64,000 bases of DNA from a phage. The translations under genes and the position numbers were made by a program. Below, in pieces: positions 7,025-54,000 of this stretch. Below the pieces are notes generated by a model. It ran no database searches. It saw nothing but the letters and a program-made list of their open reading frames with translations, and was not told where the DNA came from. Each line of letters begins with the position of its first letter. Position 1 is the stretch's first letter. Where the stretch lies: the NCBI GenBank assembly GCA_011911785.1, contig GCA_011911785.1_4084.1. The stretch is one strand, 5' to 3'.

Positions 7025-7118
7025 TAAAAAATCAATTAGCTCAAGTCAATTAAATCCACCAATAAATAAGACTATACGAAATATATTCGAATAACCAATT
7101 ATTTTTGGAGGATTTAAT

Positions 7119-9782: not shown

Positions 9783-9790
9783 CACACTAA

Positions 9791-9816
9791 GGGAACCATA
9801 TGGTTCCCTTTTTTAT
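9791..9816 (+). terminator. Rho-independent terminator
   Basis: Perfect hairpin gggaacca-ta-tggttccc followed by T-run. Confidence 0.75.
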
Positions 9817-9860
9817 TGTTTAAATTAAATACCATATATTCAGTAAGGTGAGAGGGATAT

Positions 9861-10031
9861 ATGGACGAAATAATTAAAAGTATCCTACAAGAATTGGCCT
9901 TTAATTCAGAATCACAAGAAGAAGCCCAAAATCTTATAGAAGCCTTAATGGAAGTATTAAAAGATGTGGGTATTGTGAGTGATTTTTCTGCTTATACAAA
10001 TGGCAGATGGTCAGTTCGGTGTAAGGTTTAA
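9861..10031 (+). CDS. Small acidic ORF (56 aa), hypothetical
   Basis: ATG at 9861 after GGTGAGAGGGA; below ORF-track length threshold. Confidence 0.3.
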   Translation: MDEIIKSILQELAFNSESQEEAQNLIEALMEVLKDVGIVSDFSAYTNGRWSVRCKV

Positions 10032-10132
10032 GCTATATACTGGTGAATTCCAGTACACATATTGTATTAATATGGATTGGTTCCCTATAGATAAAACATA
10101 TCATTAAGTACTACATAAAGTATGTTAATTTT

Positions 10133-10140
10133 TATAAATA
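10133..10140 (+). promoter_or_regulatory. Candidate T4-type late promoter box TATAAATA
   Basis: Only exact TATAAATA I found upstream of a structural gene, ~38 bp before tube gene ATG 10178. Confidence 0.3.
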
Positions 10141-10177
10141 ATATAAAGATCTCATTTCCTAATAGGAGAATTAATTA

Positions 10178-10861: not shown

Positions 10862-10877
10862 TTAAAGATACTTCTAA

Positions 10878-10907
10878 AGCCTCGAAACTATTTCGGGGCT
10901 TTTTTTA
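10878..10907 (+). terminator. Rho-independent terminator between the tube paralogs
   Basis: Hairpin agcctcgaaa/tttcggggct followed by T6. Confidence 0.6.
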
Positions 10908-10948
10908 TGCTAAATAAAGTATAATACCTTAAATTAAAAGAGGTTGCT

Positions 10949-11725
10949 ATGGCAAAAAACATGATTAGTAAATATGGCGTTCCATTACCATCAGGAAGAA
11001 ATAAAACAATGCTACAACCTAAAGCGAAGTATAAATTTAGAGTTATTGTTTATAATTTCGGTACTGATATCGATGAGCGTGATCACATCGCATTAGATGT
11101 TGATAAAGTTGATAGACCAACAGTAACATTCAGCACTCATAAATTGAACCATTTTACTACCAATACTACATATATTGGTAATCATAACTGGGAACCCATC
11201 ACACTAACAATTCGTGATTCAATTGGCAATGAAAGTGCTAAAGCATTGTCTAGACAGTTACAAAAACAATTAGATTTTCAAAGACGTATTACCTCCAGAA
11301 GTGAACAAGACTATGGTTCGTATAAATTTGGTATGGTTATTCAAATGCTAAATGGACGTAACACAGATGATAGTATTGAAGATTTGGCAAGAAATACTGC
11401 TGTTTCTGCTGCTACCGCTGTGACAAATAATGGTGGGTTAGTTAATGCAGTAGATCAGTTCATTGGTGGCTCAAACTATAACAGTGCTGGTGTAATGGAA
11501 TACTTTGTTCTTACAGGGTGTATCATCACCAATATCAGTTACGATACATTGGAATATAGCTCTAGTGCACCAGTAACTATGGATATTACAATTAAGCCTG
11601 ATAATTGTATTCAATTTGATAATATTGAAGAAATGTATAGTACTCGCATTAATTCATTACTACCAGAAAAAGTTAATCAGGGACTAGATATCATTGACCG
11701 TGTATTCGGTAATATAGGTTTTTAA
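10949..11725 (+). CDS. Tail tube protein paralog B
   Basis: N-terminus YGVPLPSGRNKTMLQPKAKYKFRVIVYNFG and NWEPITLTIRDSIGNESAKAL parallel paralog A. Confidence 0.6.
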   Translation: MAKNMISKYGVPLPSGRNKTMLQPKAKYKFRVIVYNFGTDIDERDHIALDVDKVDRPTVTFSTHKLNHFTTNTTYIGNHNWEPITLTIRDSIGNESAKALSRQLQKQLDFQRRITSRSEQDYGSYKFGMVIQMLNGRNTDDSIEDLARNTAVSAATAVTNNGGLVNAVDQFIGGSNYNSAGVMEYFVLTGCIITNISYDTLEYSSSAPVTMDITIKPDNCIQFDNIEEMYSTRINSLLPEKVNQGLDIIDRVFGNIGF

Positions 11726-11735
11726 GGAGAGTACT

Positions 11736-13849
<2,114 letters not shown>

Positions 13850-13877
13850 CTTAAACGACCATTAATGGAGTTATTAA

Positions 13878-14408
13878 ATGAACAAACTACAACAAATTCT
13901 AACAGAAAATAAACCTGTATATGAATATCGTGTCAAATTTGCATTTGAACCTAGTACTGAACAATTGAGTAAAGTTACCCAACGTCTAGTAGATCGCTAT
14001 GATGCTTTCGAAGTTGGTGCTCTGAAGAAAACTATTTTCATGGAAAAACCACTAGACTTTTATGAACTAGATTGTGGTGAAATCTGGATGTTTGATTTCA
14101 AATGCAATCGTGGTGTACAGTCTAATGTACTAATGTATGAAATTGGAAACCTTCTATCTGTTACTGAAGCACTTATTCGTGTTCGCGGTAAAGATGAACC
14201 ACGTCAGATTGAAATGTCCATCAGTGAAGATGACGTTGATTTTGACGAAATTCGTGTTATCGGGAAAGATTTCGGTGATGCAGTAGATAGTACTGGTATT
14301 TCTGGTCAAGAACGTGCTGATAAAGCAGTTGAAGACGCAAAAGAAGAGATTAAACGTGATAATAAATACTCTCAATATATGAGTGCTGGTTTTGGTAAAA
14401 AGGAATAA
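13878..14408 (+). CDS. Hypothetical protein (176 aa)
   Basis: ORF track. Confidence 0.5.
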   Translation: MNKLQQILTENKPVYEYRVKFAFEPSTEQLSKVTQRLVDRYDAFEVGALKKTIFMEKPLDFYELDCGEIWMFDFKCNRGVQSNVLMYEIGNLLSVTEALIRVRGKDEPRQIEMSISEDDVDFDEIRVIGKDFGDAVDSTGISGQERADKAVEDAKEEIKRDNKYSQYMSAGFGKKE

Positions 14409-14411
14409 ACG

Positions 14412-14960
14412 ATGAGTATACTTAATGAAATGTTTGAGTATGAGGACAATGAACTGAATGAAGCTCGTCCTTATAGTCGTTCTCAAAGTGCTATTGATAG
14501 TGCTAAAGGGAAAGTAAAAGGTATGTTCGGTAGTGGGCAGATTGAGCAAGGTGCACAGGAAGTTGGTGCAGAAGCTAACCGCCTATGGGCTGAATTTAAA
14601 CGATATATTGGTAAAAAATATGGCAAAGCACAAAGCTCTGTTCCATATGCTGATGTTGCACAATTCTTCAAAGGTAATCAATTGGATGTGAAATTCCTCG
14701 GTAATAATCAACGCCGTTCTTTTACACCAAAAGATGTTGGTAACGCTCTATTACAGGCTGCTCGTGAATACATGAACACATATCGTGATCAAGAAGAGCC
14801 AGCACCAGCTAAACCACAAAGTGAACCAGCAGCACCACAAGCTTCAAATGAACCACCACAACCAGCGGCGAATCCATCTACCCAATCACAAGGTATTGCT
14901 GGTATTCTACAAGGTCTAAGTCCTGCTGAACGTGAGCAACTACTTCGAATGATTTCGTAA
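14412..14960 (+). CDS. Hypothetical protein with Pro/Ala/Gln-rich C-terminus
   Basis: ORF track. Confidence 0.5.
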   Translation: MSILNEMFEYEDNELNEARPYSRSQSAIDSAKGKVKGMFGSGQIEQGAQEVGAEANRLWAEFKRYIGKKYGKAQSSVPYADVAQFFKGNQLDVKFLGNNQRRSFTPKDVGNALLQAAREYMNTYRDQEEPAPAKPQSEPAAPQASNEPPQPAANPSTQSQGIAGILQGLSPAEREQLLRMIS

Positions 14961-27004: not shown

Positions 27005-27075
27005 AATATTACCTCATTAAAAATTAAATTATTTACAAAGAGGTACAGGAAAAATCCTGTACCAATTATTTTATA

Positions 27076-30000
27076 TTAAGCAGTACGTTGAGCAATAAAC
27101 ATATCTACTACTGGACTGTATCCATCATAAATCAACTGAACGATACTCACTCCACCTGGATTTGTGTTAATTTCACCACCAACGTTTGCATAAGTTCCGT
27201 CCCAATCAAAACTATGTCCACCAGTTGTATCTTGTGCGACATAGATATAATAAGAACCAGCTTTACCACTACCAATTAAACCAGTTATTGGTGTCATCAT
27301 TACGTTTTGATCTAGTGTTATATAATACACATTTGATAGACCATCTGGTGTCCAATTACCACCAACAGCAGCAGTACTTGCAGTAACTTTAGGTGATGGA
27401 GTAACAGCATACTTTTTAGTAGTTACACTTTCAGTTACTAAATCAGCAATATCTGTATGTAGTGTACCTTCAATAGTTACATCTTTAGCAAATGTTGCAT
27501 TTTCAGCAAATGAAGATGTACCAGTAACTGTGATTGCATCAGCAGACGCAGAACCTAGTGTTACAGCACCTTTAAGGTTAGTAGCACCAGTAATTGCTGC
27601 ACCACCCGCAACTACATTGAAGCCACCCGCAGTGATTTCGATACCACCAGTACTAACAGTTAGTTTCTTACCGATAGTAACAACATCAGATAGTGTAGTT
27701 GCACCAGTAACTGCTAGAGTTGTGTTAATCTTAGCACTTGCCATAGTTGCTAGGCCAGAAGTTGTAATAGTTGCAGTAGTTACTGCACCAGACGCACTAA
27801 CGTTTGCACCAGACACATCACCAGTTGTAGTGATTGCACCATCACCAGCGTTGATTGTAGCACCATTAGTTGCAATACCACCTTTCAAAGTACTCAAACC
27901 TTCAGCAGTGATTGTTGAACCAACTGTTAGGGTTGTACCAGCAGCGATAAAGGTTGTAGAAGTTAGAGATTTAACTTCGACTGCACTTGCAGATTGGTCC
28001 AGTGTACCAATAATCTTACCACTAACAGTAAAGTCGCCAGTAGTTACTGCGTTACCATTAACAGTTAGGCTGTTAGCTGTTGAACCTTGTGCACCGAATG
28101 TTGCAGCACGTGCGTGCATATCTTCATCAGTAGTAATATTCTCAACTGCGTGAATTGTGGTATTAGAAGTTAATGAGTTCAGGGAAATATCCTGACCACC
28201 CAAATCTACTGCACCGTTAATATTACCAGCAACAAATAGGTTACTACCAATATAAGTATCACCAACAAATTGGATAGTTTCCGGTCTTGAACTAACTTTA
28301 GGACCGATGATAATACCTTTCGCAGAAATATCAGCTTTAGGCATAGTCACAGTAGAAGCATCAGAGATGTTCACGGATGCACCATTAACAACCAAAGCAC
28401 CACCAACAGTCAAACCAGTAGTTACCGCTGCACTACCAAATGTACCTTTACCAGTTGTGGTAATTGAAGTACCAGTAATGTCACCAGCAGCAGTGATTGC
28501 GGTATTTGCACTAACAGCCAAACCACCAGTTAGAGTGCTTAGACCAGTAACTTCTAGTGTTTCTCTGGATTTCAAGCTTTTCGCATCAACTGGAGTAGTA
28601 GATAGATCCAATGTTCCAGGGTTTAGTGTTCCATTAATGGTAACATCACCAGAAACTGTTAGTGAACTGAGAGCAGCTTCACCAGCGGTTAGTTTTCCAG
28701 TTAGATTTGTAGTACCAGTAACAGCCAAAGCACCACCAGCACTTAGAGCACCAGTAACTTCCGCACTACTTAATGTAGCTTTACCACTTGTTGAAAGAGT
28801 AGTAGTGTTAGTACCACCATTTAGAGTTGAAACACCAGTAACAGTTAGTGTAGTACCAGCAGTTACAGAACCGAGTGCAGTTAAGTTAGCACTTGCATCA
28901 ACACCTTCAACGTTTAGAACAGCAGAACCTAAGTTTAGGCTACCTTCAGGTGTAAATGCACCTTTAACAGTTAGGTCACCAGTAACAACTGCATCACCTG
29001 AAACATCAACACTTGCTAGTGTTGCTTTACCAGAAGTTTGAAGAGTTGCGGATTGAACTTCACCAGTAGTTTTGATTAATGCAGAACCTGCATCAACACC
29101 ACCAGATAGAGTACTTAGTCCAGTAACACCTAATGTTTCACCAATTGTCAAATAACCACCAACAGTTGCATCATTATCAACAGCTACACCAACACCAGTA
29201 GCACTTACTTGGATTGATTTAGAAGTAATTTTACCACCAACATCAACAGTACCATCAAAAGTTGCAGCACCTACAGTATGTAGGGTTGAACTTAGTGTAG
29301 TTGCACCAGAAATTGTTGGAGCACCAGTAATTGTACCAGTAGTTAGAATTAGGTCAGTACCAACAGTAGTACTTGTAGTACTTGCTAATGAGTTAGTTTC
29401 CAAATCAGCATTTGTGATAGTCAAGTTACCATCGATAGTAACGTCATTATCAACTTGTAGTGATTTAACAGTCAAATCAGTTGTACTAAAATCAACGGAA
29501 GTTGCAGTGAAAGCACCTTCAACGTGCAAATCACCAGTAACATCTGTTGGTTTAGCTAGTGTTATTTTATCTCCAGCACTTGTGTATGAACCAGCACTTA
29601 CTGAACCATCAACCACTGCCGCAGCAGCAACTTTCAAGTTTCCAGAAGCAACAGTCAAGCCACCTTTAGCAGTAATACCACCGACGTTTACAGTTACTGC
29701 GTTACCAAATGTTGAAGCACCAGTAACTTCAAGTGCACCAGAAACGGTCGCTTTACCACCGACTGTTGCATCACCAGTAACATTCAATTTACCAGCGGTT
29801 GCTTCAGTACTTGTTAGTTTTGGTAGAATACTTGGTTCAGTATTTTCAGTAACAGTAATAACACCAGAAGAAGTTAGTGATTTAACAGTTAGATCTGCCG
29901 CAGCAGCATTAATTGCACCATCAACAGTTAAGCTTCCACCAATGGTTGCACCTTCAGTTGTTGTTAATGATTTAGAACTGATATCAACTGGGCTTAAATC

Positions 30001-32613
30001 TAATCCACCTTCAGGTGTAAATGTACCTTTAACAGTTAGGTCACCATGTGCAACTGTATCATTTTCTAAATTAATACCATCGGTATTAACAATAGAAGGA
30101 GTAGTTACAGAAACAGCAGAAACAGCAGCCAATGTACTTTCACCAGTAACATTTAATGTAGAAATGTTTGCTGTAGTTACTGTTGCTGTACCAGTTGTAC
30201 TGTTAGTTGTAGTAATATCAGTACTTTGTAATTTTGGTAGAATGTTAGTTCCAGTAGCATCATTACTAATCACAGGACCAGCACTAGTTAAAGATTTAAC
30301 ACTTACATCTGCTGCACTTAAATCTACAGTACCATCAACAGTTAGGTTTCCACCTACATGTGCACTTTCAGATACATCAAGTGTTTTAACAGTTACATCA
30401 GCCGCACTTAGGTCAATAACACCAGCCGTTAAAGTTCCAGTAACATTCAAATCACCACCAACTGATGCATTATGATCTACACTTAGACCAGTTCCGGTTC
30501 CGGTAATTTGTGCGGAAGCTGCGGTCACTTTAGTAGTTGCTGTGATATTTGGGGCAGTGATAGTACCGTCAGATTCAATTGAACCAGTTTCTAATGCATC
30601 AGAACCAACACCAGTAACTTTACCAGTAACTTCAACTTTCAAGCCACTAAAGAGTGCGTTTCCACCAACACTTAGATCAGTCCCCACTGCAACTTCTTCA
30701 GTTGTGGTTACAGAATTAGGTAGAATGTCTAGACCATCAACGTTTGCTTTAATTGCAGCACCAGATAGTGTACCAGTAACGTTTAAATCTTTAACAGTGG
30801 TTGTTTGACCAACAACTTCAAATAAACCATCAACTACCGTGTTACCAACCAATGTGGTAGTACCGTCAACGGTTAGGTTTCCAGATGCAGTTACGTCAAC
30901 ACCTTTAACATTACCAGATGCAGTTACATCTTTAGGAGTAATGTCTTGACCAGCTAGTGTAATACCAGTTGTAGTTCCAGTAACAGTCAAATCAGTTATA
31001 GTTGTGCCTTTTAGAACGGAATCCCCATCAACTGTTAGTGTACCAGAAGCATCTAGATTAACACCACTAATATTACCAGAAGCAGTTACATCTTTAGGTG
31101 TAATATCTTGACCAGAAATGTCAGGAACAAAACCAGTAACTGTACCAGTGAAATTAACGTCTTTGAATTGAGCCTTACCATCCACATCTAGAGTTAATGT
31201 ATTTGGATCTTGTACCGCATTACCAGTTATTTTCAAATAATCAAATAGGTTCAAACCTTTTGCTGTAATACCGTAGGTAGATGCAGATACATCACCAAAT
31301 GTAGCAGTTTTCAGTACTGTTAGATTTGCTGGGGTCATTAATTCGGACTGTACTTCGTTTTGTAGAATTACAGTTGGACGTAAACCAGGAGCAGTATATG
31401 TAAAGTTAACTTTAGCATTCGTGTCTGCTACGTTTCCACCTAAAGTGACAGATTTTAAATTAGCATTCGCAGTTGAACCAACAATATTAGATTCTAGGTT
31501 TAATGCACCTTTTAGTGTAGTTAGTTTTTCAACAACTAAATTATCCGCAGTAATATCACTTAGTACAAAGTTACCTGATAGTGTTCCAGTAATATCCAAA
31601 TCACCAACAGTAGTTTTACCAGTAATATTAGTAGTTCCATCAACTTGTAGGTCAGTTAATTGTGTTTTACCTTTAGTTACACGTAGAATTGGTGTGGTTG
31701 GATCTTGTATTGAGTTACCAGAAAGTGTTAGGTAATCAAATAGGTTCAAACCTTTTGCGGTAATACCATTGGTTGCTGCTGATACATCACCAAATGTAGC
31801 AGTTTTAAGTACTGTTAGATTTGCTGGAGTCATTAGCTCTGACTGTACTTCGTTTTGCAGAATTACAGTTGGGCGTAATCCTGGAGCAGTGTATGCAAAG
31901 CCTAGGCGTGCAGTCGAGTCCGCTGCATTAGAACCCAAAGATACAGCTTTTAGGTTTGCTACAGTATTAGTACCAATGATGTTTGATTCTAGGGTTACAG
32001 CACCTTTTAATGTAGATAGTTTTTCAACAACTAAATTATCGGTATTAACATCCCCTAATGTGAAATCACCATCTAATTTACCAGTTACAGTTAGATTCTC
32101 AACGGTTGCACCAGTTGCAGTAATATCAGTTGCTGATACAGTTGCAATGGTTGCTTCATTAGCAGTTAATTTATCAAAGCTTGCAGTGGTTGCTGCCGCA
32201 GCAGTGAGGTTACCATTTAATGTTGTTGTACCATTAACTTCTAATGCAGAAGTGGTGGTATCTTGAAAAATTGCTTTTCCTGATGTTTGTGTAATATCTT
32301 TGGCAAAAGTAGAAGTGCCATTAAAAGTAGCATTGGAATTAATAGTTGCTGTATCGGAACCAGCAGTAGTATTACCAATAACTGTATTGCCAAGTACATC
32401 CATTCCACCCTTAAGTGACGCTTTGCCTGTAACATCGAGTGTTGTGTTGATTGTTGCTTGATCTACTGTAATTGCAGTGAAGGTAGCATCAGCGAAACTA
32501 ACGGTCCCCTTAATGGTTACGTTTTTATCGAAGACCGCATTACCTTTAACTGATAATTCTTTACCAACATTAGTATTACCAGTTACTGCTAGATCTGTTT
32601 TTATCGAGTACAT
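27076..32613 (-). CDS. Giant repetitive tail fibre/adhesin-like protein (1845 aa)
   Basis: ORF track; T/G/S/V/A-rich beta-strand repeats, internal tandem duplications. Confidence 0.6.
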   Translation of the reverse strand: MYSIKTDLAVTGNTNVGKELSVKGNAVFDKNVTIKGTVSFADATFTAITVDQATINTTLDVTGKASLKGGMDVLGNTVIGNTTAGSDTATINSNATFNGTSTFAKDITQTSGKAIFQDTTTSALEVNGTTTLNGNLTAAAATTASFDKLTANEATIATVSATDITATGATVENLTVTGKLDGDFTLGDVNTDNLVVEKLSTLKGAVTLESNIIGTNTVANLKAVSLGSNAADSTARLGFAYTAPGLRPTVILQNEVQSELMTPANLTVLKTATFGDVSAATNGITAKGLNLFDYLTLSGNSIQDPTTPILRVTKGKTQLTDLQVDGTTNITGKTTVGDLDITGTLSGNFVLSDITADNLVVEKLTTLKGALNLESNIVGSTANANLKSVTLGGNVADTNAKVNFTYTAPGLRPTVILQNEVQSELMTPANLTVLKTATFGDVSASTYGITAKGLNLFDYLKITGNAVQDPNTLTLDVDGKAQFKDVNFTGTVTGFVPDISGQDITPKDVTASGNISGVNLDASGTLTVDGDSVLKGTTITDLTVTGTTTGITLAGQDITPKDVTASGNVKGVDVTASGNLTVDGTTTLVGNTVVDGLFEVVGQTTTVKDLNVTGTLSGAAIKANVDGLDILPNSVTTTEEVAVGTDLSVGGNALFSGLKVEVTGKVTGVGSDALETGSIESDGTITAPNITATTKVTAASAQITGTGTGLSVDHNASVGGDLNVTGTLTAGVIDLSAADVTVKTLDVSESAHVGGNLTVDGTVDLSAADVSVKSLTSAGPVISNDATGTNILPKLQSTDITTTNSTTGTATVTTANISTLNVTGESTLAAVSAVSVTTPSIVNTDGINLENDTVAHGDLTVKGTFTPEGGLDLSPVDISSKSLTTTEGATIGGSLTVDGAINAAAADLTVKSLTSSGVITVTENTEPSILPKLTSTEATAGKLNVTGDATVGGKATVSGALEVTGASTFGNAVTVNVGGITAKGGLTVASGNLKVAAAAVVDGSVSAGSYTSAGDKITLAKPTDVTGDLHVEGAFTATSVDFSTTDLTVKSLQVDNDVTIDGNLTITNADLETNSLASTTSTTVGTDLILTTGTITGAPTISGATTLSSTLHTVGAATFDGTVDVGGKITSKSIQVSATGVGVAVDNDATVGGYLTIGETLGVTGLSTLSGGVDAGSALIKTTGEVQSATLQTSGKATLASVDVSGDAVVTGDLTVKGAFTPEGSLNLGSAVLNVEGVDASANLTALGSVTAGTTLTVTGVSTLNGGTNTTTLSTSGKATLSSAEVTGALSAGGALAVTGTTNLTGKLTAGEAALSSLTVSGDVTINGTLNPGTLDLSTTPVDAKSLKSRETLEVTGLSTLTGGLAVSANTAITAAGDITGTSITTTGKGTFGSAAVTTGLTVGGALVVNGASVNISDASTVTMPKADISAKGIIIGPKVSSRPETIQFVGDTYIGSNLFVAGNINGAVDLGGQDISLNSLTSNTTIHAVENITTDEDMHARAATFGAQGSTANSLTVNGNAVTTGDFTVSGKIIGTLDQSASAVEVKSLTSTTFIAAGTTLTVGSTITAEGLSTLKGGIATNGATINAGDGAITTTGDVSGANVSASGAVTTATITTSGLATMASAKINTTLAVTGATTLSDVVTIGKKLTVSTGGIEITAGGFNVVAGGAAITGATNLKGAVTLGSASADAITVTGTSSFAENATFAKDVTIEGTLHTDIADLVTESVTTKKYAVTPSPKVTASTAAVGGNWTPDGLSNVYYITLDQNVMMTPITGLIGSGKAGSYYIYVAQDTTGGHSFDWDGTYANVGGEINTNPGGVSIVQLIYDGYSPVVDMFIAQRTA
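31205..32060. repeat. Internal tandem duplication (~494-bp period, 2 copies) inside the 1845-aa fibre gene
   Basis: tcaaataggttcaaaccttttgc...gtactgttagatttgctgg...cttcgttttg recurs at ~31241 and ~31735 with high identity; protein segments TAPGLRPTVILQNEVQSELMTPANLTVLKTATFGDVSA duplicated. Confidence 0.7.
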
Positions 32614-33647: not shown

Positions 33648-35819
33648 TTATGGAAGTGTAATGTATGTAATTGGGGATTCGGCTAACAATGGAGTCCCAT
33701 CAGGGAAAGCAGTTTTTATTTCGTCTGCTATATCAATGCAAAATACCGAGTTGACCACGTATGTAGCTCGTGTTATATGAGTGTGGAGATCAGTCCCATT
33801 TTCACCAGCACCAGGAATTACAATTCTTGTACCTGCTGCTTTAGCATATTGGTTTGTACCCCATGCAGTGTTATGTGTTCTAATAGTTTTAGCACCAACT
33901 ACTGCTGCTTTAAGCTGTTCATATTTTCCTACGAATGCACCAGCTACTGTTACTACATATTTACCCCCAGATTGTTTGTGTAAAATTGTTCCTTTGGGGA
34001 AATATCTACCACCTGGGAATTCATCATAAGGTAGATAATATTGCTCCGTGACTGGTATCAGTACTGGGCCACGGTGACCAGTTCCATCTATTTCAGTTGT
34101 TACCGTGAAGTTATTACCAGATTGATCTATTCTATCAACATACATTCGTGAGAATGAATAATTTGATATATTAGCGTCATCTTGAACTATATTACCAATC
34201 CAACTGGTATATGTATAATTAGTTCTGGTATAAACGCCACCACCTTCACCATCTTGATATTGACCAATTACATCTAAATTTTTTGTATAAATTTTACTGA
34301 ATTTTGATGATGATGGTAATCCACGCCAATATAATTTTTCACAAGTTATATTGTGCATATCAGTTTCGTTAGTCCATGCGTTTGCACCGGATGTGTATAT
34401 TTCTATACTAGATTCAGGAATGAAAACGTTTTGAACTTTAAAATCTTTTGGTGGACCTGCATACCATGCATATTGGTGTGTTGCATCAGCAGGGTTAACA
34501 CCCCATGTAAATTTAATCATTCTGTTTGTTGGTGCAGTTGCTGGATCATCCAAATAGCGACCAGTTAATCCGTCAACAACAAAATCTTGACATCCATAAG
34601 TGATGATACCTGCGGCAGTTAAGCCAGTTCCAGTTGATATTGTGGTTGATGGAAATGTCTCATTATCTATTATATTAAAATTCTTACCGACTTCAACGTG
34701 TATACATTGACGACAGTTATATACTCTATTTCGAGCAATAGTGAAGTTTTTAACATATTGACTATCTGGAATATCAACTCCATATGGACCTTTACCAGCA
34801 ACACCGATACCGATACCCCAGTTTGATAATGGGATTGGAGCGTTAGTACCATCAACGTTTTCAATATGGTTTCCTTCAATGATTAGACCATCAGTGAAGT
34901 GTCTTGAAACTACGTTTAATTCAATACCATCACCATAGATATCGTGAATATGGTTATATGCATAGCGAGCATATTTTACTATCTCACCACTACCACCTTG
35001 CTGTAGAACACCAAAGTTAACATCGTACATTTCATTGAAACAAAAGTCGAGAATACCTTCTGAAGTTAAATCACGCATAAAGAATGCACAGGTGAATGTT
35101 GTACCATAGAAGCGGTTGAAATAGAACTTACCATTACCACCAGAAAACTGAATATAACTACGAGCAATGTTTGCCCCTTGTATTTTACAGTTGGTTGCTG
35201 ATATCATTGTTTTACCAGTGCCAGTTAATGTGCCACCATACCATTCAATATTTTCAAAATATATTGCTTTGGATAAACGATAAACACCTTTACCTTGTAT
35301 TTGGATATCATGAGCTTTAGCGTAATCAGCACAAGCTTGAACTGCGTCAGTATCATCAGCAATACCATCACCGATAGCACCAAATTCTTCAGGTGTTATA
35401 TAATACAAAGCTTGTTGTAGTGTTCCACCAGAAACCAAACCAATATAATCAGAACCATTAGTACTGGATAATACTTTAGTATTAACATACATTGATTTTA
35501 TCCATGCACCATTCTTCTTAGCGAAAATATCTAGGATACCACCACTTTCTTGGTCTAATTGCAAATAAGTATAATTATTCTTACCAAGACTATTATCTGG
35601 GATTTCATTCCCAAATAATACGGTTGGGTGGTCAGCGAGATACTTTGCAGTAATCGCTGAATTATCATTAATCGGTTCACCAACTTGTACGGGCAATAAG
35701 ATGCTTCCGAAACTATCTGTAATAGACAGGGAATTGTTAGCATAATTAATTAATGCCCCATTTTTACCAAGTATAAACTTGGTTTTCATTGTCCCTTCAA
35801 AGTTAGAAAAAACTGCCAT
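33648..35819 (-). CDS. Tailspike with parallel beta-helix, depolymerase-like (723 aa)
   Basis: N-terminus MAVFSNFEGTMKTKFILGKNGA; central repeats with NHIHDIYGDGIEL, IIEGNHIENVDG, RNRVYNCRQCIHVE typical of pectate-lyase-fold spikes. Confidence 0.6.
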   Translation of the reverse strand: MAVFSNFEGTMKTKFILGKNGALINYANNSLSITDSFGSILLPVQVGEPINDNSAITAKYLADHPTVLFGNEIPDNSLGKNNYTYLQLDQESGGILDIFAKKNGAWIKSMYVNTKVLSSTNGSDYIGLVSGGTLQQALYYITPEEFGAIGDGIADDTDAVQACADYAKAHDIQIQGKGVYRLSKAIYFENIEWYGGTLTGTGKTMISATNCKIQGANIARSYIQFSGGNGKFYFNRFYGTTFTCAFFMRDLTSEGILDFCFNEMYDVNFGVLQQGGSGEIVKYARYAYNHIHDIYGDGIELNVVSRHFTDGLIIEGNHIENVDGTNAPIPLSNWGIGIGVAGKGPYGVDIPDSQYVKNFTIARNRVYNCRQCIHVEVGKNFNIIDNETFPSTTISTGTGLTAAGIITYGCQDFVVDGLTGRYLDDPATAPTNRMIKFTWGVNPADATHQYAWYAGPPKDFKVQNVFIPESSIEIYTSGANAWTNETDMHNITCEKLYWRGLPSSSKFSKIYTKNLDVIGQYQDGEGGGVYTRTNYTYTSWIGNIVQDDANISNYSFSRMYVDRIDQSGNNFTVTTEIDGTGHRGPVLIPVTEQYYLPYDEFPGGRYFPKGTILHKQSGGKYVVTVAGAFVGKYEQLKAAVVGAKTIRTHNTAWGTNQYAKAAGTRIVIPGAGENGTDLHTHITRATYVVNSVFCIDIADEIKTAFPDGTPLLAESPITYITLP

Positions 35820-45067: not shown

Positions 45068-48000
45068 TTATTGAATATTCAATAGATTTTCGATATCAGT
45101 TCCAGTAATTGACAATCCATTTCTGAATGTATCTAATGGAATTGGTGGATAGAAGTTTTGATATTGAGTAAACTTATCAATGCTCCCCAAGTTCAATCCA
45201 TTAAAGCTATAAGACGTTCCTTTAGTAAAATTATGTTCCGCACTATACATGACACCACGTAATAGACGGTCAGTGTTTCTTACCTGAACCTTCTCATATC
45301 CAACCACAATAATATCATCATTCTGTGCCGCAGCACCTGACAGTACTGAATCAGTAATGATATATGGGCTTATTGAACGAGGTTTAGCAACATAAGTGAT
45401 TGCCTCATCTTCAACGGTTGTAATGTTAATTACACTACATCCTACTTCTTTGATGAACGTGTTATTGACCACAGGTTGTGCATACTGCCACACGCGATCA
45501 TAACTTAGTACTGGTTGAATAACATCAACATCGTATTCAAATACAGTGATTTCAATACCATCAGTCATTTTAGCTCGTACTAGTTCACCCAGGACACCTT
45601 TACCAGAGATTGGCTGATTGTAACCATTATCAATTGTAATACCATCAACTTCAAAAATCTCATTGGAAACTAACCACAAATCAATTTCATCAGGTGTGAT
45701 ACCATCATTGAATTTACCACCATATAATGTTTCGTCATAGAATACTTCATAGTTCAATGCATGTATACTGTAATGACGATTATTTTCATATAGTTTAAGT
45801 CCATTGTCATCAAACTCAGGGTCTTGGAAAGTGCGGATTCTAACTAAGTTCATTGATAATGTATAAAAACGCTCATTACTTTCACGCTTAGTTATACTAT
45901 CAAACATTAACACTACACCATTACTATCAACCAACTCTACGTTACCATTACCCAATACACGTACTGTGTATAGTTTTGGTTTTTTAGAGGATTGGATTTT
46001 ACTAGCACTTAATATAGTTACCCAGTTACCGTCTTGGAATCGTACATAATCTTCACCATCTGGCGTGAAAATCATAACCTTATCACCATCTTTCAAACCT
46101 TCATCGTGAACTTTGATTTCAGTAATTGTTTTAATTTCTGAAATTGGGAAGAAGTATTTTTCAGATTCTTTGAACACATCTTTACCCATATTCTCAATGA
46201 CAATATCATATGATGGAATACTTACAACTGCTTCTGACATATTGTAAGGGTTTTGTACGATCATACCCTCAATCTGGAATCTACTTGTGTCTTTTAATTG
46301 CTCTTGAGCAACTTCATCGAAACCGTAACCATCAACAGTGAAACGTAATTGTGCCATTGTTCTTCCTGATGGGTTTAGTTCAGAAATGTCGATGATATAA
46401 GGATCAATCTCACTATCTTTAACTTCCCATTTAATGGATTTGGTTTGTGATTCCAATGCCAAGTTATCGAATGCATTCATATCATTGAAATATTTTGCAG
46501 TATTGATACTTTCCAGTACTTCAACATATGCAGAATACATTGGATTATTCTGGTCTTGTGGTAAATCATTTAAATCAATTTCAGCCAATACAACTGATTC
46601 TCCGGTTGTTATGAATAAGTCTTCCATGAAATCAGATATGCTGTAACTTTCAGGAATCGGTAGATATTCACCTGCCGCATTCACAACATACACATATTTC
46701 CTTGGCATCATAACAAAAGCATACTTATCAACTGCACGATTACTTAAGATTTCTCTAGCAACATAATAATGATCTAGAATATTCTTATTAAATGTTTGTC
46801 GCATTGCAGATAACACATGAACGGTATCAGAATAATAACGGTCATTTAATGTGGTATCATACTTGTAGCAATAAACACCATATTCTATCTCTAGTATATT
46901 ACGAACTTGGTCTTCATTAGTAAACTCAGGGTGATTTTTCTTGATCATATCGACATATTTTTCATATAGTTCAATACTAATCTCAAAATAACCATAGTTG
47001 TAATCACTACTTGCACTGAACCCAAAAGGTAGGCGAGTATTAGGATTATCATTATAGTTCGTACCCTTAAATGGACAACCAATCTCATTAGAAACCATGT
47101 CATCAGATATATTCTTAAACATTTTCACACGAGTTGCTAATGTATTGTATTGAATATATTTCTTAACGTCTTCTAAAATGTTACTGTTGTTTGTATCAGT
47201 AGTTACCTGCTCCAAATCAGCAGTAAATTGGTCAGTCATTGCAATATCAGTTGAATGGGCTTTATACCATGCATCAATTCCTTTAATGACACCATTACTA
47301 ATATCCAAATCTGAATATTTGGTAGTCATTTCAATACCAATCTGTGAAATTAAGGTATTATTATCATATTCAGGGAATGTATAAACATATCTCTGTAATT
47401 CATAATCATTTCCTATATCCGAAGCATTAGATTGATACTTACTATTGGTTGATTTCAACTCATCAATTGTATAATTACTATCATACGGGTCACATTGAAT
47501 ATTATCATAATGCATAATAACGTCGATTTCTTGGAATCGTCTGTTAGGTGTGATAAAGTCACTTGGTAGTGAACCAATCTTTTCCCAACGTTGGGTTACG
47601 TCATTAAATTGTGCATATTCTAAATCCCAAATGTCTTTTTCAGTCTTAACCCACACACCATCAACTAAAATATAGCCATCTGGGTCAAGGTCATTACTGA
47701 TACCATTAATCAAATCATCATCAGAAGTTTTCTGTTCTATTTGAGAACGGATTTTGGTTCTGTATGGTTTAACTTCTTCGAAGTACTCAACAATTTGATT
47801 AATCAAGTTGTCATTTGAGTAGTTTTGTACGAGAGATTGTTCTAAACCTACAATATAGATATATGAGGTTTTGAATACCCAGTCAACAACACTTTGTTCA
47901 GTGTGTACGTACTTAACCATATCAAAAACAATATTACTTTGATATAAGTTGAATGAATTTTTCAACAACGCTAACGCATTACGAACGTTAACCTCATGAG

Positions 48001-51000
48001 AATTCAAAGAACCATCATCATTGTAAACATTGTACCCAGAATATAACATTGAATTCAATTCAACTGTACTATTCTCACGTCCAATAGCTTTCCAGTATAT
48101 ATTATTACGAGATGCAGTCTTGATGTATAATGTCCAAACACCATCACTATCAGTTACACGGATAATATCACCAATTTGGTAATTTTTAGTGTTTGCGTCA
48201 TCTAAACTAACTTCTTGTGTATATTCAGTGTTGCTATCGTATCCAGTATCGTACCAATCAGCCAGATTCCAGTACTGGGTCATATCCAAAGATGTACCAA
48301 GTGATTCTATGAAGTCAGCTTGTTTAATCATCTTGTGTTGACCTTCACCTCTATTTTCTAGAGTGATTGTAACAGTACTTCCAACTGTACTTGGACTGTT
48401 CATCAATTGAATGTATCCATTTGGATCAATGTGAACAAAATATACTGAACTAGAAGATAATGGTGCTGGCAGAGTTCCGATGGAACTTACAAATACTGCA
48501 TCATTCTCTTTAAAGCGGTTATCTTCTGGTGCAATTACCAATTCATTGTTAAATGATAGAACACGGAATGTAATATCATTTGGGTTCATTTTTAATGTTT
48601 TCACATTAAACACATCATTCATAACAACACTGTTAGTTGTGATGTTCTGTGAACGGTAAAAGTTATTTGCACTCTCAACAAACGCACGACGAGCTTCAAT
48701 GACATTCTGGAACCAAGTTTTATTAGAACCTAAACCAGTTTCAACTTTAGGATAAATTATTTCATTTACAACACCAGTTGAAGTAGTTTCTTGACCAATT
48801 AGTGAGTTCCATAGTGAATTCCAAATATCTGGGTTAAAGTCATAACTATCACCTTCTTTACAGAGTTGATATTGATCATGCTTCAGTACTTCGATATTGT
48901 CATTTCTATATGAAATTGTCAAAATGCTTGTATCATCATTAACTTCAAATTGCATATTACTTAGAATGAAACTATTTTCATTAATAGGTGCAAACCAAGG
49001 AACATTCAATTGTGTTGGATCTTGAATAATACGTGCAATATCAGTACAAGACTTACTACGAGTAGTCATTGGTGGAACATAAATGGTATTACGAACCCAG
49101 AAATAATAACGAACTACATATGTATCAGTGATTGGATCATATTCCATAGATGAACTGTAGTTCTCATCCATTGCAATCCCACTTGGGAGATACATAGTAT
49201 TGTTTTTATTTTTATTGGCTTGTTCTGCACAATATTTTTCCCAGTTGTATGGTTCTACTGGTGAACTAACCCATTCTAGAACATCAATAACACTGTGTGG
49301 TAATAATTTACCCCAATTATAACGCTTATATTCATTAGTTGCTTTTACATCAACGTTACCATCCTCATCAAAGATTGGACGGGTATAATCCAGATAGAAT
49401 GCAGTGCTAGTGTTCCACCACACTTTACCTACCTTTTCAGCACCCCATGCTTGTAATAGTTCACCGTTACTGCTATACTGTGCTGGGTCCACTGGAGAGA
49501 TGAAATCAACATCTTGCATTGCAACCCCAGGAATAACACCGTTAATTGGGTCAAACACATTCAAATACAATGCAGTAATGTTTGTTCTTTCATCATACGT
49601 AGTAGGACGGTCAAACAAAGTGCTTTCAGGTGCACTGTAACTATATTTTTTAGCAATATATTCATCGCGTTCTTGTTGAGTACTAAATCTACTAACATAA
49701 CGATACAAACGTGGTGCTGATTCTACTGTTGAAAAGTCAATAGTAATGGAAGTGTCAAATGGCACTACCATAACTTTTGGATCTAGTCCAGAAGTGTAGT
49801 ATTGGCATTCATCACGTAGGGCATCAGGCATAAAGTTTGTTTCATCAACAAAATAATAATAATCACCATCATTGAGTGGGATATCATCAGACAATAGTAC
49901 TTTACAATATTGCTCAGCATATGGATCTTCACTTTCAATTGGTGTAATAGAAACCATTGTAATACCAGTATCTACTAAATCATACACATTCCATTCGTTA
50001 TTGATATCTTGGAACATCCAAACAGATGTTGGGATTTTACCAGAATTATTCATATAACTAATGCGGTCTTGATTTGCAGTTTCGTAATTTAATGTGGTAT
50101 AATCAATTTCATCTAGGGTTACTGGTCCAATATTAGGTAATTGGATATTCTCACTTCTCCCATTACGCATAGGGAATGAGAATTTACCTTTTGGACGACT
50201 AATCCAGCGTGAATCTTCACCAATTTCACCATAATATACAATTTCATTCTCAGATTCAACCTTATCGGAATAACGGTCAAACGTAATCATTTGTGGTTGT
50301 TGTTTAAACTCATTATTAATTAGTTTAAATTGAAGATTTTTAACACCATCAATGTTACCATAAGAACCAACACGGAATGCCCATTCTTGTAATGCTTTAT
50401 ACTCATCAGTATTATATGATTTAGATACACGTAATACTTTTTCTAGTACTTGGTTAGTGCCTTTATCATGAATAAAACCTTTATAGAAATCAATTCGACC
50501 AGGCTCATTAGTGATCATACGTTGTAAGTAATCACGAGACTGATAGCCAATTAAGTGGTTTGAAAGTTCATTTAATTGAACATCACTAACTGGGGTTTCA
50601 TTATCATAATACTGTTGGAAATTAGACACCAAAGTTTCAAATGATGGTAATGTACCAGCTTCTAGGATGATAAATCCAGGAGCTTGTAAACGTCCAGACC
50701 ATGAACCAGTGATATATCCATACAATTTAATCAATTCTTGAACTGCACCATAGGTTGGTTCATAGATATAATCACCGAAAATCGTCTGATCATCAAAAAT
50801 AACAGCATGTTCATAAGAACTGATACTTAAACGAATAAGTGCCATGCGTTTATTTGATTCTTCAGTTGTTCTTACCGTGAATATGTTACCAATACGAGAT
50901 GTTTCAATCTCAAATTGACGTATACCCTGGTTTGAATCATCTAACAATGACCAAACACCACCACTATTTTGTGCAATTGACTGTACTGAACCAAAATCTG

Positions 51001-54000
51001 TACCAAATTTAGCATTAATTGCTGATGGGGTACAAGAAATGAATTCACCAGTACTCAATTGTTGTTGACTCCAGATTAAAAAGTCTTTTGCAATTGTATT
51101 CCAGTCCTGTTGGATACCAGATTCATCAACTTCTTCAAAAATCCAACCATGTTGCTTGAGATACTCACCATAACCACAAATAAATGTGTAAACTTCCTGG
51201 AAGGTATTCATCAAAGTTCCGTAAGGAATGGATGCATCATTTTTCCACTCATTATAATGAACAACATTACGATTATCAACTTTCAAAGATACTTTATGAC
51301 CGTTTTTAACAGGCAATTTATAATTGAATGTTGCAGAAACTAAATCATAACCATCAATTTGGTAAGCACTACCAGTCCAAGTAATTTTAATTGCACTCAT
51401 TTGCTCATTTCTAATATTATTAGAACGAACTAAACCGATAGATTGGTTTTCTTGTGAAATTAGACCAGTTGCTTCTGATGTAAATGTTAATTGATCAGCT
51501 TTAGTGAATCCACCTAGTTTATGACCCACATTAATATGAGAAGAACGAACAATTTCACCGTACTTAGTTGTAATATTTTTGTTTTGATACATCAAATAAT
51601 CACTAACAATCATTTGATAACCAATAACGCGAGTACTATTCTCACCATGTACGATTGTATCACTATTAAAGTTCAAACGTAAACGAGTATCACCATATAA
51701 AAACTGTGGTTCATTACCAGATACAGTTTTTAATGTATTATTTCGGGTATCCCAGAAATAGTTTGTGAACTGTGCAGGTTTAGCTTTGAATAACATCAAT
51801 AATTCATCATATGCAAACATTGCTGTATTCATATAAGTGAATTCCATATCACCCATATCACCATAAGTCCACGGTTCAGCACGATGATTTAGACTACCAT
51901 ATACAAGACCTAAAACTTCAGGAGCAATGTACTCAATGACACAAATATCAACACCAGATGCTGTCTGCTTGCCTGTTTTAGTGATCTTAAATGGTTGTGT
52001 ACCAAAACGTTTGTACTTGTCATATTGACCTTTACGTGCACCAAACAAGATAGTACCAGTTGAGCTATCACCTTTCTCGTTACCAACGTCCCATAACCCA
52101 CTAGGAACCATGTTACCTTGTTCGTTGATAACTAATGCCTCATATACATAAACAACATCACCATCACGTTCGCCAACTTGAACTGCGGTAGGTTCATATT
52201 CCTGGTTCCACCAAACTGGACGTTGGGAGAAACCAAACATTTCCCACGGATGGGTTGCTGGGCGATATGTACCAAATTGGTCAGTGTAGATTGCTCGCCA
52301 TGAACCACGGGCTGCTATTTGTGTTTGTTGACCATTAACCATGTAATGTGTTCCAGTATAGTTCCAAGTCATCCAGTTATTTGGATCATAATCATGTGAA
52401 CTATTACTGATACCATTGGTTGCGATGAAGTTAATATAACCACGTAGTAGTAAGTTCTTTTTCTCTTCGTCATTATACTCTGTATCTCTGTAATACGGAG
52501 TTGGGAAAAGATCAGAAGCATCTAGCTTAGGTTGGTAATCTTCATCTTTGAAAATAACATCAATACTATTGAAAATTCTATTTTCTAACTCATATATAAC
52601 GTCATCCATTTTATCAACACCGTTTATTACACGGTATGCTTTAGTGATTGCACCTGTATGACTGATGTTATAACAGCTTTGCTTACTACCAGCATTCAAA
52701 AATGTTGCTTTTTCTGGAACGTGTGCTTTCAAAATACCCAAAAACTGTGGAGTTGGTGGTACAAACGCACGAATGAAGCCAGAAGTACTTGCTACGTTAT
52801 CATAATAGAATGGGAAAGTATTATCATGACCCATATTAATAATTGTTAGAATTTCATCAACAATATTAGAAGCATTATTAGCTAAGAAGTTTGCTGGGTT
52901 CTCATTGTACAAACGGATCATTTGTGTATTGAACTTGTTTACGAAACGGAAATATTCGGATTGCATAAACAATACAGATTCAAATAGGTCAATATCTTCA
53001 TTTGCAGAATGTGCCATTAACGGTAGCATTGATGCTTCGTTTTGAATAATCTTAGTACCAACGGAGTTATCCACTAATCCTTTAGACAAACGATCTTCGT
53101 AGTCGTTGAAATCATCAACGGAACCACTGGTGATATTCTTTTGAATGATATCTTTAAAATGTAATGTAAAATTACTTTGGTTGATATAAAGAATATTATC
53201 GTTGTATGGGTTATTTTGTAAGTTGATTGGGATTTCATATGCACCCAACTCTTTATTTGGTACTTCAGTACTGCTGTATGTTCTAATTTGAATCACTGAT
53301 TCATCTTTAAGAGCTACATCTTCACCTAAAGTGATGCTTTGAACCTTGTTATTATATACATGACGTGTATAATCGGTTACATCCACACCATCAACTTGAA
53401 TTTCAATGATTTCAGTACTCTTACCATCAATAATTTTCTGGGCCAATTCAAATGTGCGATTGAAACGTTCACTTTGAATACCTTCACCACTAATTACATG
53501 CCAATCCATATAGGTTTGACGTTCTTCTTTGTAATATTGATAGGTACGATCCACTTCAGTAACATATGCATACATACCTTCTAATGGATTTTTAAAGTTT
53601 TCCATTTCGAATACAGTATTGAATACACGATACATATCAGTGTGTTCTATTTGTGGCGTTTGTTTAACGAATTGCTTTGAATCTTCCTTAGAACGAACCC
53701 AATCGGTCTTAAGGTGTAGTTCATTATCTTTACCAACTACATTATAGTAGTACAATCCAGAAATTTCAGTTTCAACACCCAAATGATCATATGTATAACG
53801 AACACTTTGTAGGAAGTTTTCGTACATATAGTAATTATAATTACCTAGTTCGATATTATAACCATATACTTTATCAGTGCCGTAATTATAGTTGATTTTA
53901 AAACCAAATAGGGATGAACCAACAAAGTTACTTGATGGATAAATTGTAGAATCATTTAATTTAACACCATCACGGTCATATAATTGGAATTGTGGGAATA

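What the first reader, a model, noticed from the sequence alone, without database searches (positions are those of the whole stretch)
31205..32060. Recent ~494-bp tandem duplication inside the 1845-aa fibre gene
Two long, highly similar DNA segments (beginning tcaaataggttcaaaccttttgc at ~31241 and ~31735) lie in tandem within the gene and duplicate a ~165-aa segment. A shorter ~160-bp duplication is visible at ~30930/31090 (DITPKDVTASGN repeated). Such repeats allow length variation of the fibre by unequal recombination and can cause assembly collapse.
Basis: seen in the sequence. Interest (0 to 1): 0.5.

Follow-up and report, generated by a model that had tools for sequence, protein, structure and literature searches.

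The report
Old tandem module pair in tail-fibre gene
The repeat is real, but it is an old, selectively maintained pair of 165-amino-acid shaft modules in the long tail fibre of a jumbo coliphage; the module count varies from one to three in related phages through unequal recombination, which is ordinary fibre-gene evolution.

Summary
An in-frame 495-nt (165-aa) tandem repeat lies in the 1845-aa minus-strand gene 27076-32613, with unit A at 31576-32070 and unit B at 31081-31575. A second 162-nt (54-aa) repeat follows it. The gene is 99.5% identical to A4_569 of Escherichia phage A4 (Asteriusvirus), annotated 'long tail fiber proximal subunit'.

'Recent' is not supported.
- The units are 78% identical in DNA and 73% in protein, with dS 0.66 and dN/dS about 0.25.
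- A 39-aa core is invariant in protein yet carries 11 synonymous differences.
- The longest identical run is 26 nt.
- Three A4-type alleles share the two-unit structure.
- The orthologues examined (121Q, UE-S1, Ecwhy_1, JNE01) carry the pair at the same position, and most listed Asteriusvirus records show a matching copy count.

Length variation by unequal recombination is supported within the family.
- JP4 and CRJP21 carry three units. The middle unit is a B-head/A-tail hybrid, the expected unequal-crossover product.
- One JNE01 paralogue has three units with a conversion-like patch.
- Two metagenomic contigs carry one unit.
- phiTE- and rV5-type fibres have one.

Assembly collapse is unlikely. 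The module's fold is unresolved (AF2 monomer pLDDT 47). I infer a trimeric shaft spacer just distal to the baseplate-attachment region. This is an ordinary, low-novelty finding.

The parts
27076..32613 (-). Long tail-fibre gene, 1845 aa (orthologue of A4_569, 121Q gp571, phAPEC6 gp256)
   Evidence: ORF list. It is 99.5% nt identical to ON286972.1 A4_569, annotated 'long tail fiber proximal subunit'. PHROG 4549 'tail fiber protein', E 1.3e-179. It is syntenic with 121Q gp571. phAPEC6 Gp256, 180 kDa, was found in virions by MS (PMC7247149); I equate it with this gene from its size and position, not from a sequence comparison.
32071..32613 (-). N-terminal region, aa 1-181, upstream of the first module; presumed baseplate-proximal part
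   Evidence: In every homologue scanned the first module starts at aa ~130-280, and at ~175-185 in most. In the phiTE long tail fibre the modelled, baseplate-bound part is residues 14-171 (PMC11972413). The role of this region in the window protein is inferred.
31576..32070 (-). Module unit A, aa 182-346 (165 aa)
   Evidence: hmmsearch domain at 182-343, score 320. Codon-register comparison. DNA alignment A3.
31081..31575 (-). Module unit B, aa 347-511 (165 aa)
   Evidence: hmmsearch domain at 347-511, score 319..
31777..31893 (-). Invariant 39-aa core of unit A (YTAPGLRPTVILQNEVQSELMTPANLTVLKTATFGDVSA, aa 241-279)
   Evidence: It is 100% aa identical to the unit B core, with 11 synonymous codon differences: dN 0, dS 0.47.
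31282..31398 (-). Invariant 39-aa core of unit B (aa 406-444)
   Evidence: The corresponding conserved stretch is where the JP4/CRJP21 hybrid unit switches parent.
30985..31155 (-). First copy of the 54-aa short shaft repeat (aa 487-543; contains GQDITPKDVTASGN); overlaps the end of unit B
   Evidence: Self-blastn: 31025-31115 vs 30863-30953, 81%, E 1e-19. Dot-plot offset 54, score 102. The same motif is reiterated in phiTE and rV5-type fibres.
30823..30993 (-). Second copy of the 54-aa short shaft repeat (aa 541-597)
27079..27354 (-). Conserved C-terminal domain (aa ~1754-1845), predicted mainly beta-stranded
   Evidence: phmmer to phiTE long tail fibre 9cuy_g residues 631-792. It is shared with jumbo-phage and rV5-type fibres. 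AF2 pLDDT is ~90+ over the last ~90 residues. There is no PDB fold match at E<0.001.

Best explanation
The window comes from an Asteriusvirus jumbo coliphage almost identical to phage A4. The feature is a pair of tandem, in-frame 165-aa structural modules near the N-terminus of its 1845-aa long tail-fibre protein.

Architecture. The module is a family-wide building block. It always begins shortly after the N-terminal region, at aa ~130-280 and ~175-185 in most homologues. It is followed by shorter ~54-aa 'GxDIxPxxV' shaft repeats, a long repetitive shaft, and a conserved C-terminal domain.

Evolution (shown). The pair is old and kept by purifying selection. Across the family the array behaves as a small birth-and-death / concerted-evolution system. 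Misaligned homologous recombination in the conserved core adds or removes whole units, giving 1-, 2- and 3-unit alleles, and occasionally homogenises patches.

Function (inferred). Each unit is a trimeric, beta-rich shaft segment that acts as a spacer. Unit number would set the length and geometry of the baseplate-proximal part of the fibre. Scaling from the phiTE fibre (793 aa, predicted 512 A) gives roughly 10 nm per unit.

In this phage further copy-number change should be rare, because the units share no identical run longer than 26 nt.
For: The repeat is real and in frame.

Age and selection:
- dS is 0.66, dN 0.165 and dN/dS about 0.25 over 131 codons. The core has dN 0 and dS 0.47.
- Window versus A4 differs by only 25 of 5538 nt, scattered along the gene.
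- A third A4-type allele, P0001, is 98% identical overall and identical over aa 1-645.

Same two-unit architecture elsewhere:
- It is found at aa ~183-345 and ~353-517 in 121Q gp571, UE-S1_520, Ecwhy_1 207 and JNE01 WOL22752, and at aa 130-280 and 300-464 in Ecwhy_1 208.
- Matches per record in 33 listed Asteriusvirus records: 2 in 20 records, 3 in 2, 4 in 9 and 5 in 2.

Copy-number change by unequal recombination:
- JP4 (2129 aa) has three 170-aa units. The first ~285 nt of the middle unit are 80-98% identical to unit 3. Its last ~220 nt are 87-100% identical to unit 1. The switch falls in the conserved core.
- CRJP21, an independent isolate, has the same allele.
- JNE01 WOL22751 has three units. 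Its unit 2 is mostly A-like, but one patch is 96-98% identical to unit 3.
- Single-unit alleles occur in two separate sequencing runs, SRR20818753 and ERR13965906.

Tree:
- The A units and B units of 121Q, UE-S1, Ecwhy_1 and JNE01 form separate clades.
- The window's two units pair with each other, as do those of GAP32 (77%) and Munch (60%).

Family placement:
- PHROG 4549.
- The only PDB sequence match is the phiTE long tail fibre 9cuy_g, E 1.3e-26. The module, the DIxPxS repeats and the C-terminal domain align in the same order.
- The phiTE fibre is a trimer whose region beyond residue 171 is predicted to be an extended beta-helix (PMC11972413).
- A likely orthologue (matched by size and gene position) is a virion protein by mass spectrometry (PMC7247149).
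Against: - The fold and the spacer function are not shown. The AF2 monomer model of the module is uninformative (mean pLDDT 46.8), and no experimental structure covers the module.
- I could not separate 're-duplication in the A4 lineage' from 'gene conversion of an ancestral pair'. Diagnostic A/B sites gave a mixed signal.
- The single-unit alleles come from short Logan contigs of ~2.2-2.4 kb and could be chimeric assemblies, although two independent runs agree.
- No copy-number variation was seen among the three A4-type alleles.
Confidence: 0.72

Rival explanations
1. Recent tandem duplication: the second unit arose lately in this phage lineage and is still a hot substrate for unequal recombination and for assembly collapse.
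For: The window's two units are more alike (69-73% aa) than either is to any unit of other Asteriusviruses (47-60%), and they pair in the tree. Their dS of 0.66 is lower than the 1.08 between the 121Q units.
Against: A dS of 0.66 is about 60 times the window-A4 divergence of roughly 0.01. The protein-invariant core carries 11 synonymous differences. The longest identical run is 26 nt. The two-unit architecture is found at the same position in the four orthologues examined and matches the copy count of most listed records. Three A4-type alleles have identical unit structure.
Confidence: 0.05
2. A single ancient duplication followed by purely vertical, independent divergence of units A and B, with no later exchange or copy-number turnover.
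For: The A and B units of the 121Q/UE-S1/Ecwhy_1/JNE01 group form clean orthologous clades. Unit boundaries and position are the same in these orthologues.
Against: The window, GAP32 and Munch units each cluster within their own genome. The JP4/CRJP21 hybrid middle unit and the JNE01 patch show exchange between units. Alleles with 1 and 3 units exist.
Confidence: 0.1
3. The modules are not passive spacers. Their invariant core is a docking or recognition surface, for example for neighbouring virion proteins, side fibres or a host ligand, so that unit number sets valency rather than length.
For: The 39-aa core is under very strong constraint (dN 0) within the window, and its central stretch is closely conserved across all Asteriusvirus units. 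Asteriusviruses carry complex 'whisker' and 'hairy' fibre sets (PMC7247149). Small virion structural genes flank the fibre gene.
Against: There is no direct evidence. Strong conservation is equally expected for a trimerisation or folding core. phiTE's homologous region is predicted to be an extended beta-helix. There is no Pfam or PDB domain match.
Confidence: 0.12
4. Assembly artefact: the tandem copy is a mis-assembly (false expansion), or the region is a diversity-generating retroelement template/variable pair.
For: None beyond the presence of a repeat.
Against: The window, A4 and P0001 are independent sequences with the same structure. The reading frame is intact. The units are 22% diverged. 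The mismatch spectrum involves all base changes and is not adenine-specific.
Confidence: 0.01

Closest known systems
Escherichia phage A4 gene A4_569 (ON286972.1), and orthologues 121Q gp571 and phAPEC6 gp256 (Asteriusvirus 'long tail fiber proximal subunit')
   Same: The locus and synteny are the same. A4 is 99.5% nt identical and has the same two units. 121Q has two tandem units at the same position. phAPEC6 gp256, which I equate with this gene by size and position, is a virion protein by MS (PMC7247149).
   Different: 121Q-type units are 170 aa, against 165 aa here, and are only ~55% identical to the window's units. This whole fibre region is saturated in synonymous divergence between the window and 121Q (dS ~1-1.3).
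JP4 / CRJP21 three-unit alleles and the JNE01 WOL22751 paralogue
   Same: They belong to the same gene family and have the same module at the same position.
   Different: They carry three units. In JP4 and CRJP21 the middle unit is a B-head/A-tail hybrid, an unequal-crossover product. JNE01 and Ecwhy_1 also carry a second, paralogous fibre gene in tandem, which the window lacks.
Pectobacterium phage phiTE long tail fibre (PDB 9CUY chain g / 9MJN; Vequintavirinae-type) and rV5-like tail fibres (e.g. Murica gp27, phage A73)
   Same: This is the only solved-structure relative by sequence (E 1.3e-26). The module, the reiterated 'DG.DI.P.S' repeats and the C-terminal domain come in the same order. 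It is a trimeric baseplate fibre (PMC11972413).
   Different: It has one module and is 581-1080 aa long, against two modules and 1845 aa here. I found no N-terminal similarity. Only phiTE residues 14-171 are modelled experimentally, so the module's structure is not solved.
T4 gp34 (long tail fibre proximal subunit)
   Same: The database annotation borrows this name. Both are long trimeric fibres with internally repeated shaft segments (the T4 side is from general knowledge).
   Different: There is no detectable sequence relationship. phmmer against all PDB chains at E<=1 returned only phiTE, although gp34 fragments are in the PDB (from my memory: 4UXE-4UXG, 5NXF). Pfam gave no hit. The window protein also carries a C-terminal domain shared with complete fibres such as the phiTE long tail fibre, so 'proximal subunit' may be a misnomer.
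Adenovirus fibre shaft pseudo-repeats (analogy only)
   Same: The number of tandem shaft repeats varies between relatives and sets fibre length (general knowledge).
   Different: They are unrelated in sequence. The adenovirus repeat is ~15 residues, against 165 here.

Membership tests
Asteriusvirus / phiTE-type long tail fibre (PHROG 4549) | Significant sequence match to the family profile | tested here: met
   phrog_4549 'tail fiber protein', E 1.3e-179, 8 matched stretches.
Asteriusvirus / phiTE-type long tail fibre (PHROG 4549) | Domain order: N-terminal region, 160-170-aa module(s) starting at aa ~130-280 (~175-185 in most), short 'DIxPxS' repeats, shaft, conserved C-terminal domain | tested here: met
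   hmmsearch of the module HMM on 11 fibre proteins and 26 database proteins. Alignment to 9cuy_g. C-terminal domain comparison.
Asteriusvirus / phiTE-type long tail fibre (PHROG 4549) | Conserved genomic context (between a colanic-acid-degrading/structural gene block and thymidylate synthase) | tested here: met
   The gene order is the same in A4, 121Q, UE-S1, Ecwhy_1, JNE01, JP4 and CRJP21, and partly in GAP32 and Munch.
Asteriusvirus / phiTE-type long tail fibre (PHROG 4549) | Trimeric virion fibre attached to the baseplate | not testable with these tools
   Only by proxy. phAPEC6 gp256 was detected in virions (PMC7247149). The phiTE long tail fibre trimer is seen on the baseplate (PMC11972413).
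T4 gp34-type proximal long-tail-fibre subunit | Detectable sequence homology to gp34 | tested here: not met
   phmmer against all PDB sequences at E<=1 returned only the phiTE long tail fibre. Pfam returned 0 families at E<=1.
T4 gp34-type proximal long-tail-fibre subunit | Works with separate hinge and distal subunits (gp35/36/37 equivalents) | not tested
   Downstream genes are small 'structural proteins'. No analysis was made.
Recent segmental (tandem) duplication | Near-identical copies with few synonymous differences | tested here: not met
   78% nt identity, dS 0.66, longest identical run 26 nt.
Recent segmental (tandem) duplication | Absent from close relatives or polymorphic among isolates | tested here: not met
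   A4 and P0001 have the same two units. The genus orthologues examined also have two, and most listed records show a matching count.
Tandem-repeat array evolving by unequal crossing-over / gene conversion | Copy-number variants among homologues | tested here: met
   1 unit (L011, L014, rV5/phiTE types), 2 units (most records), 3 units (JP4, CRJP21, JNE01 WOL22751).
Tandem-repeat array evolving by unequal crossing-over / gene conversion | Hybrid units with a parental switch inside the homologous core | tested here: met
   Sliding-window identity of the JP4 and CRJP21 middle unit. JNE01 patch. This was shown in relatives, not in the window itself.
Diversity-generating retroelement TR/VR pair | Adenine-specific mismatches between the repeats | tested here: not met
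   The 88 mismatches are spread over all substitution types; C>T 16, G>A 13 and A>T 11 are the commonest.

The most novel reading that the evidence does not exclude
The invariant 39-aa core of each module could be a docking or recognition site, so that module number (1, 2 or 3) sets how many accessory fibres, adaptor proteins or ligands each long fibre carries. Alternatively, module number could tune fibre reach to the thickness of the host capsule or O-antigen. Either way, unequal recombination in this array would be a simple host-range 'dial' in jumbo phages.
Probability: 0.1. Interest if true: 0.55.

Novelty: new member of a known kind. Interest (0 to 1): 0.22.

Why it matters
The practical value is modest.
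- It corrects the reading of this repeat: it is old and selected, not recent.
- It shows that the annotation 'T4 gp34-like proximal subunit' has no sequence support.
- It defines a 160-170-aa module shared by the fibres of Asteriusvirus, related jumbo phages (GAP32, Munch) and Vequintavirinae-type phages.
- The JP4/CRJP21 hybrid unit is a clean natural example of unequal crossing-over changing the number of shaft units.
- Natural 1-, 2- and 3-unit alleles indicate that units can probably be added or removed. That suggests module boundaries for engineering fibre length in jumbo coliphages considered for therapy.

None of this would surprise a phage specialist.

Tried and rejected
- The search for homologous proteins with the 165-aa module alone found nothing. 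With the C-terminal 246 aa it found only one hit. The exhaustive representative search found only 13 clusters at E<=0.001, so no deep alignment was available.
- The AF2 monomer model of the module, from a 16-sequence alignment, has mean pLDDT 46.8 and no secondary structure. I therefore made no fold search on it and assign no fold.
- Pfam gave no family for the whole protein. The precomputed families PF26208 and PF26209 seen on relatives were not reported by the local Pfam scan, either for the window protein or for the relatives. No paper in the library mentions them.
- Diagnostic A-type versus B-type residues were too few and gave a mixed signal. They could not decide between gene conversion and re-duplication for the window's pair.
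- A diversity-generating retroelement was rejected because the mismatches are not A-specific.
- No other copy of the module exists elsewhere in the window.
- The antisense ORFs inside the repeat (31421-31735 +, 31769-32266 +) have no PHROG match and are not annotated in A4. I treat them as shadow ORFs.
- The promoter and terminator scan of the gene found nothing above chance inside the repeat.
- Literature searches found no description of this repeat.
- The fold search of the C-terminal domain against the PDB found no match at E<0.001.
Full report
**Observation**

The gene is a 5538-nt ORF on the minus strand, 27076-32613, encoding 1845 aa.

The period is 495 nt.
- Tandem Repeats Finder reports 31238-32215, period 495, 2.0 copies, 72% matches.
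- Self-blastn gives an ungapped 369-nt match at 79% (E 3.6e-89) between 31684-32052 and 31189-31557. It also gives a second repeat of period 162 nt, 31025-31115 vs 30863-30953, at 81% (E 1e-19).
- Both repeats are in frame. Unit A is aa 182-346 (31576-32070) and unit B is aa 347-511 (31081-31575). They are 73% identical in protein over 131 ungapped positions.
- The short repeat is 54 aa and contains GQDITPKDVTASGN twice.
- In a protein dot-plot, offsets 165 and 54 are the two strongest off-diagonals, scoring 127 and 102 against at most 52 in shuffles. Weaker internal repeats follow at offsets 138, 355, 433, 376 and 111.

**What the gene is**

The gene is 99.5% identical to A4_569 of Escherichia phage A4. 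A4 is a 355-kb Asteriusvirus, and the gene is annotated 'long tail fiber proximal subunit'.

- It matches PHROG 4549 'tail fiber protein' at E 1.3e-179 and no Pfam family.
- Orthologues sit in the same gene order in 121Q (gp571), UE-S1, Ecwhy_1, JNE01, JP4 and CRJP21.
- In phAPEC6 a 180-kDa 'tail fiber protein', Gp256, was detected in virions by mass spectrometry (PMC7247149). I take it to be the orthologue from its size and its position near thymidylate synthase.
- The only solved-structure relative by sequence is the long tail fibre of Pectobacterium phage phiTE (9CUY chain g, 793 aa, E 1.3e-26). It aligns to the module, to the following short repeats and to the C-terminal domain, in the same order.
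- In phiTE only residues 14-171 are modelled, as a trimer bound to the baseplate wedge. The rest is predicted to be an extended beta-helix (PMC11972413).
- T4 gp34 was not recovered at E<=1, so the 'gp34-like' name has no sequence support here.

**Age of the duplication**

Between the two units, Nei-Gojobori dS is 0.66 and dN is 0.165 over 131 codons.

- The 39-aa core YTAPGLRPTVILQNEVQSELMTPANLTVLKTATFGDVSA is invariant in protein but has 11 synonymous differences (dS 0.47).
- Identity in 60-nt windows runs from 33% to 92%, and the longest identical run is 26 nt.
- For scale, the window and A4 differ at 25 of 5538 positions, 16 of them synonymous, scattered along the gene.
- A third A4-type allele, P0001, is 98% identical overall and identical over aa 1-645.
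- The window and 121Q are saturated in this region, with dS 0.96-1.34 in five flanking genes. The 121Q units differ by dS 1.08.

The pair is therefore far older than strain-level divergence and is under purifying selection. 'Recent' is not supported.

**Distribution and copy number**

An HMM of the module finds two tandem units at aa ~183-345 and ~353-517 in 121Q, UE-S1, Ecwhy_1 207 and JNE01 WOL22752, and at aa 130-280 and 300-464 in Ecwhy_1 208.

- It finds three units in JNE01 WOL22751 (2120 aa).
- It finds two in GAP32, two to three in Munch, and one in the rV5-like Murica gp27.
- It finds one in the phiTE-, rV5- and A73-type proteins. The first module starts at aa ~175-185 in nearly all of these.
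- tblastn of the module against 50,697 phage records gives, among 33 listed Asteriusvirus records, 2 matches in 20 records, 3 in 2, 4 in 9 (two paralogous fibre genes in the one I examined, Ecwhy_1) and 5 in 2.
- Two Logan contigs from different runs (SRR20818753, ERR13965906; 99.1% identical to each other) encode a 121Q-like fibre with a single unit.
- The exhaustive search of 1.84 billion representatives found only 13 clusters at E<=0.001, so this is a small family. The named members I saw are all phage fibres.

**Mechanism of copy-number change**

JP4's single fibre gene (2129 aa) has three 170-aa units.

- The first ~285 nt of its middle unit are 80-98% identical to unit 3 (B-type).
- Its last ~220 nt are 87-100% identical to unit 1 (A-type).
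- Units 1 and 3 are only 59% identical overall. The switch lies in the conserved core, where A and B are most alike.

This is the product expected from a crossover between a misaligned B unit and A unit. CRJP21, an independent isolate, carries the same allele, with the gene 99.45% identical. In JNE01 WOL22751 the middle unit is mostly A-like but contains a patch 96-98% identical to unit 3, which suggests gene conversion.

In a neighbour-joining tree, the A and B units of the 121Q/UE-S1/Ecwhy_1/JNE01 group form separate clades. The units of the window, GAP32 and Munch pair within each genome. I read this as turnover or homogenisation on long time scales. For the window's own pair I could not tell re-duplication from conversion.

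**Function**

Function is inferred, not shown. The AF2 monomer model of the module is uninformative (pLDDT 46.8), as expected for an obligate trimeric fibre segment.

- I base the inference on three things: the module's position directly after the N-terminal region, the phiTE prediction of an extended beta-helix, and the natural occurrence of 1 to 3 units.
- The most likely role is a shaft spacer whose number sets proximal fibre length. Scaling from 793 aa to 512 A in phiTE gives roughly 10 nm per unit.
- A docking or valency role for the invariant core is not excluded.

**Rejected alternatives**

- Assembly artefact: three independent sequences agree on two units.
- Diversity-generating retroelement: the mismatches are not adenine-specific.
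- Genes on the other strand: the antisense ORFs have no family match.

**Verdict**

This is a real but ordinary feature. It is an old, conserved tandem module pair in a jumbo-phage tail fibre, and its family shows clear unequal-recombination turnover. Novelty and interest are low.

Noticed in passing
window 27079-27354 (-), aa ~1754-1845 of the fibre: The C-terminal ~90-170 aa form a domain shared with the phiTE long tail fibre and with rV5-like and other jumbo-phage fibres. Relatives carry the precomputed family PF26209. AF2 predicts a confident, mainly beta-stranded domain (pLDDT >90) with no PDB fold match at E<0.001; the best hit is a Pa223 capsid spike at E 0.04. A domain this conserved on fibres of phages with different hosts suggests a role other than host-specific receptor binding.
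   Followed up: partly
window 27076-30800 (-), aa ~600-1845 of the fibre: The shaft contains further internal repeats: aa 731-798 vs 869-936 (offset 138), 842-883 vs 1197-1238 (offset 355), 1270-1302 vs 1381-1413 (offset 111) and others. The whole shaft appears to have grown by repeated internal duplication, relative to the 581-1080-aa rV5/phiTE-type fibres.
   Followed up: partly
L006 (Ecwhy_1 459-11242), L007 (JNE01 3175-14562): Some Asteriusviruses carry two paralogous long-fibre genes in tandem at this locus (for example Ecwhy_1 207 and 208). The window, A4, 121Q, UE-S1 and JP4 carry one. This is gene-level duplication on top of module-level duplication.
   Followed up: partly
window 33648-35819 (-): A 723-aa protein two genes upstream of the fibre matches PHROG 6117 'colanic acid degradation' (E 6e-229) and several tail-spike families. 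It is probably a depolymerase tail spike. In JP4 the annotated counterpart is only ~200 aa, and in JNE01 it is split into two CDS.
   Followed up: no
window 45068-55075 (-) and 55127-58591 (-): There are very large ORFs of 3335 aa and 1154 aa. phAPEC6 lists a 382-kDa virion protein (gp245) that may correspond to the larger one. I did not examine them.
   Followed up: no
window 27042-27063: A perfect 9-bp stem-loop (GGTACAGGA-loop-TCCTGTACC) lies in the 71-nt gap between the fibre gene's stop and the next minus-strand gene. It is terminator-like on both strands.
   Followed up: no
L014 182-1408 (Logan ERR13965906): The single-unit fibre allele in this contig is interrupted by an apparent frameshift after aa ~400. 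The fibre sequence continues in another frame. This is either a sequencing or assembly error or a pseudogene.
   Followed up: partly
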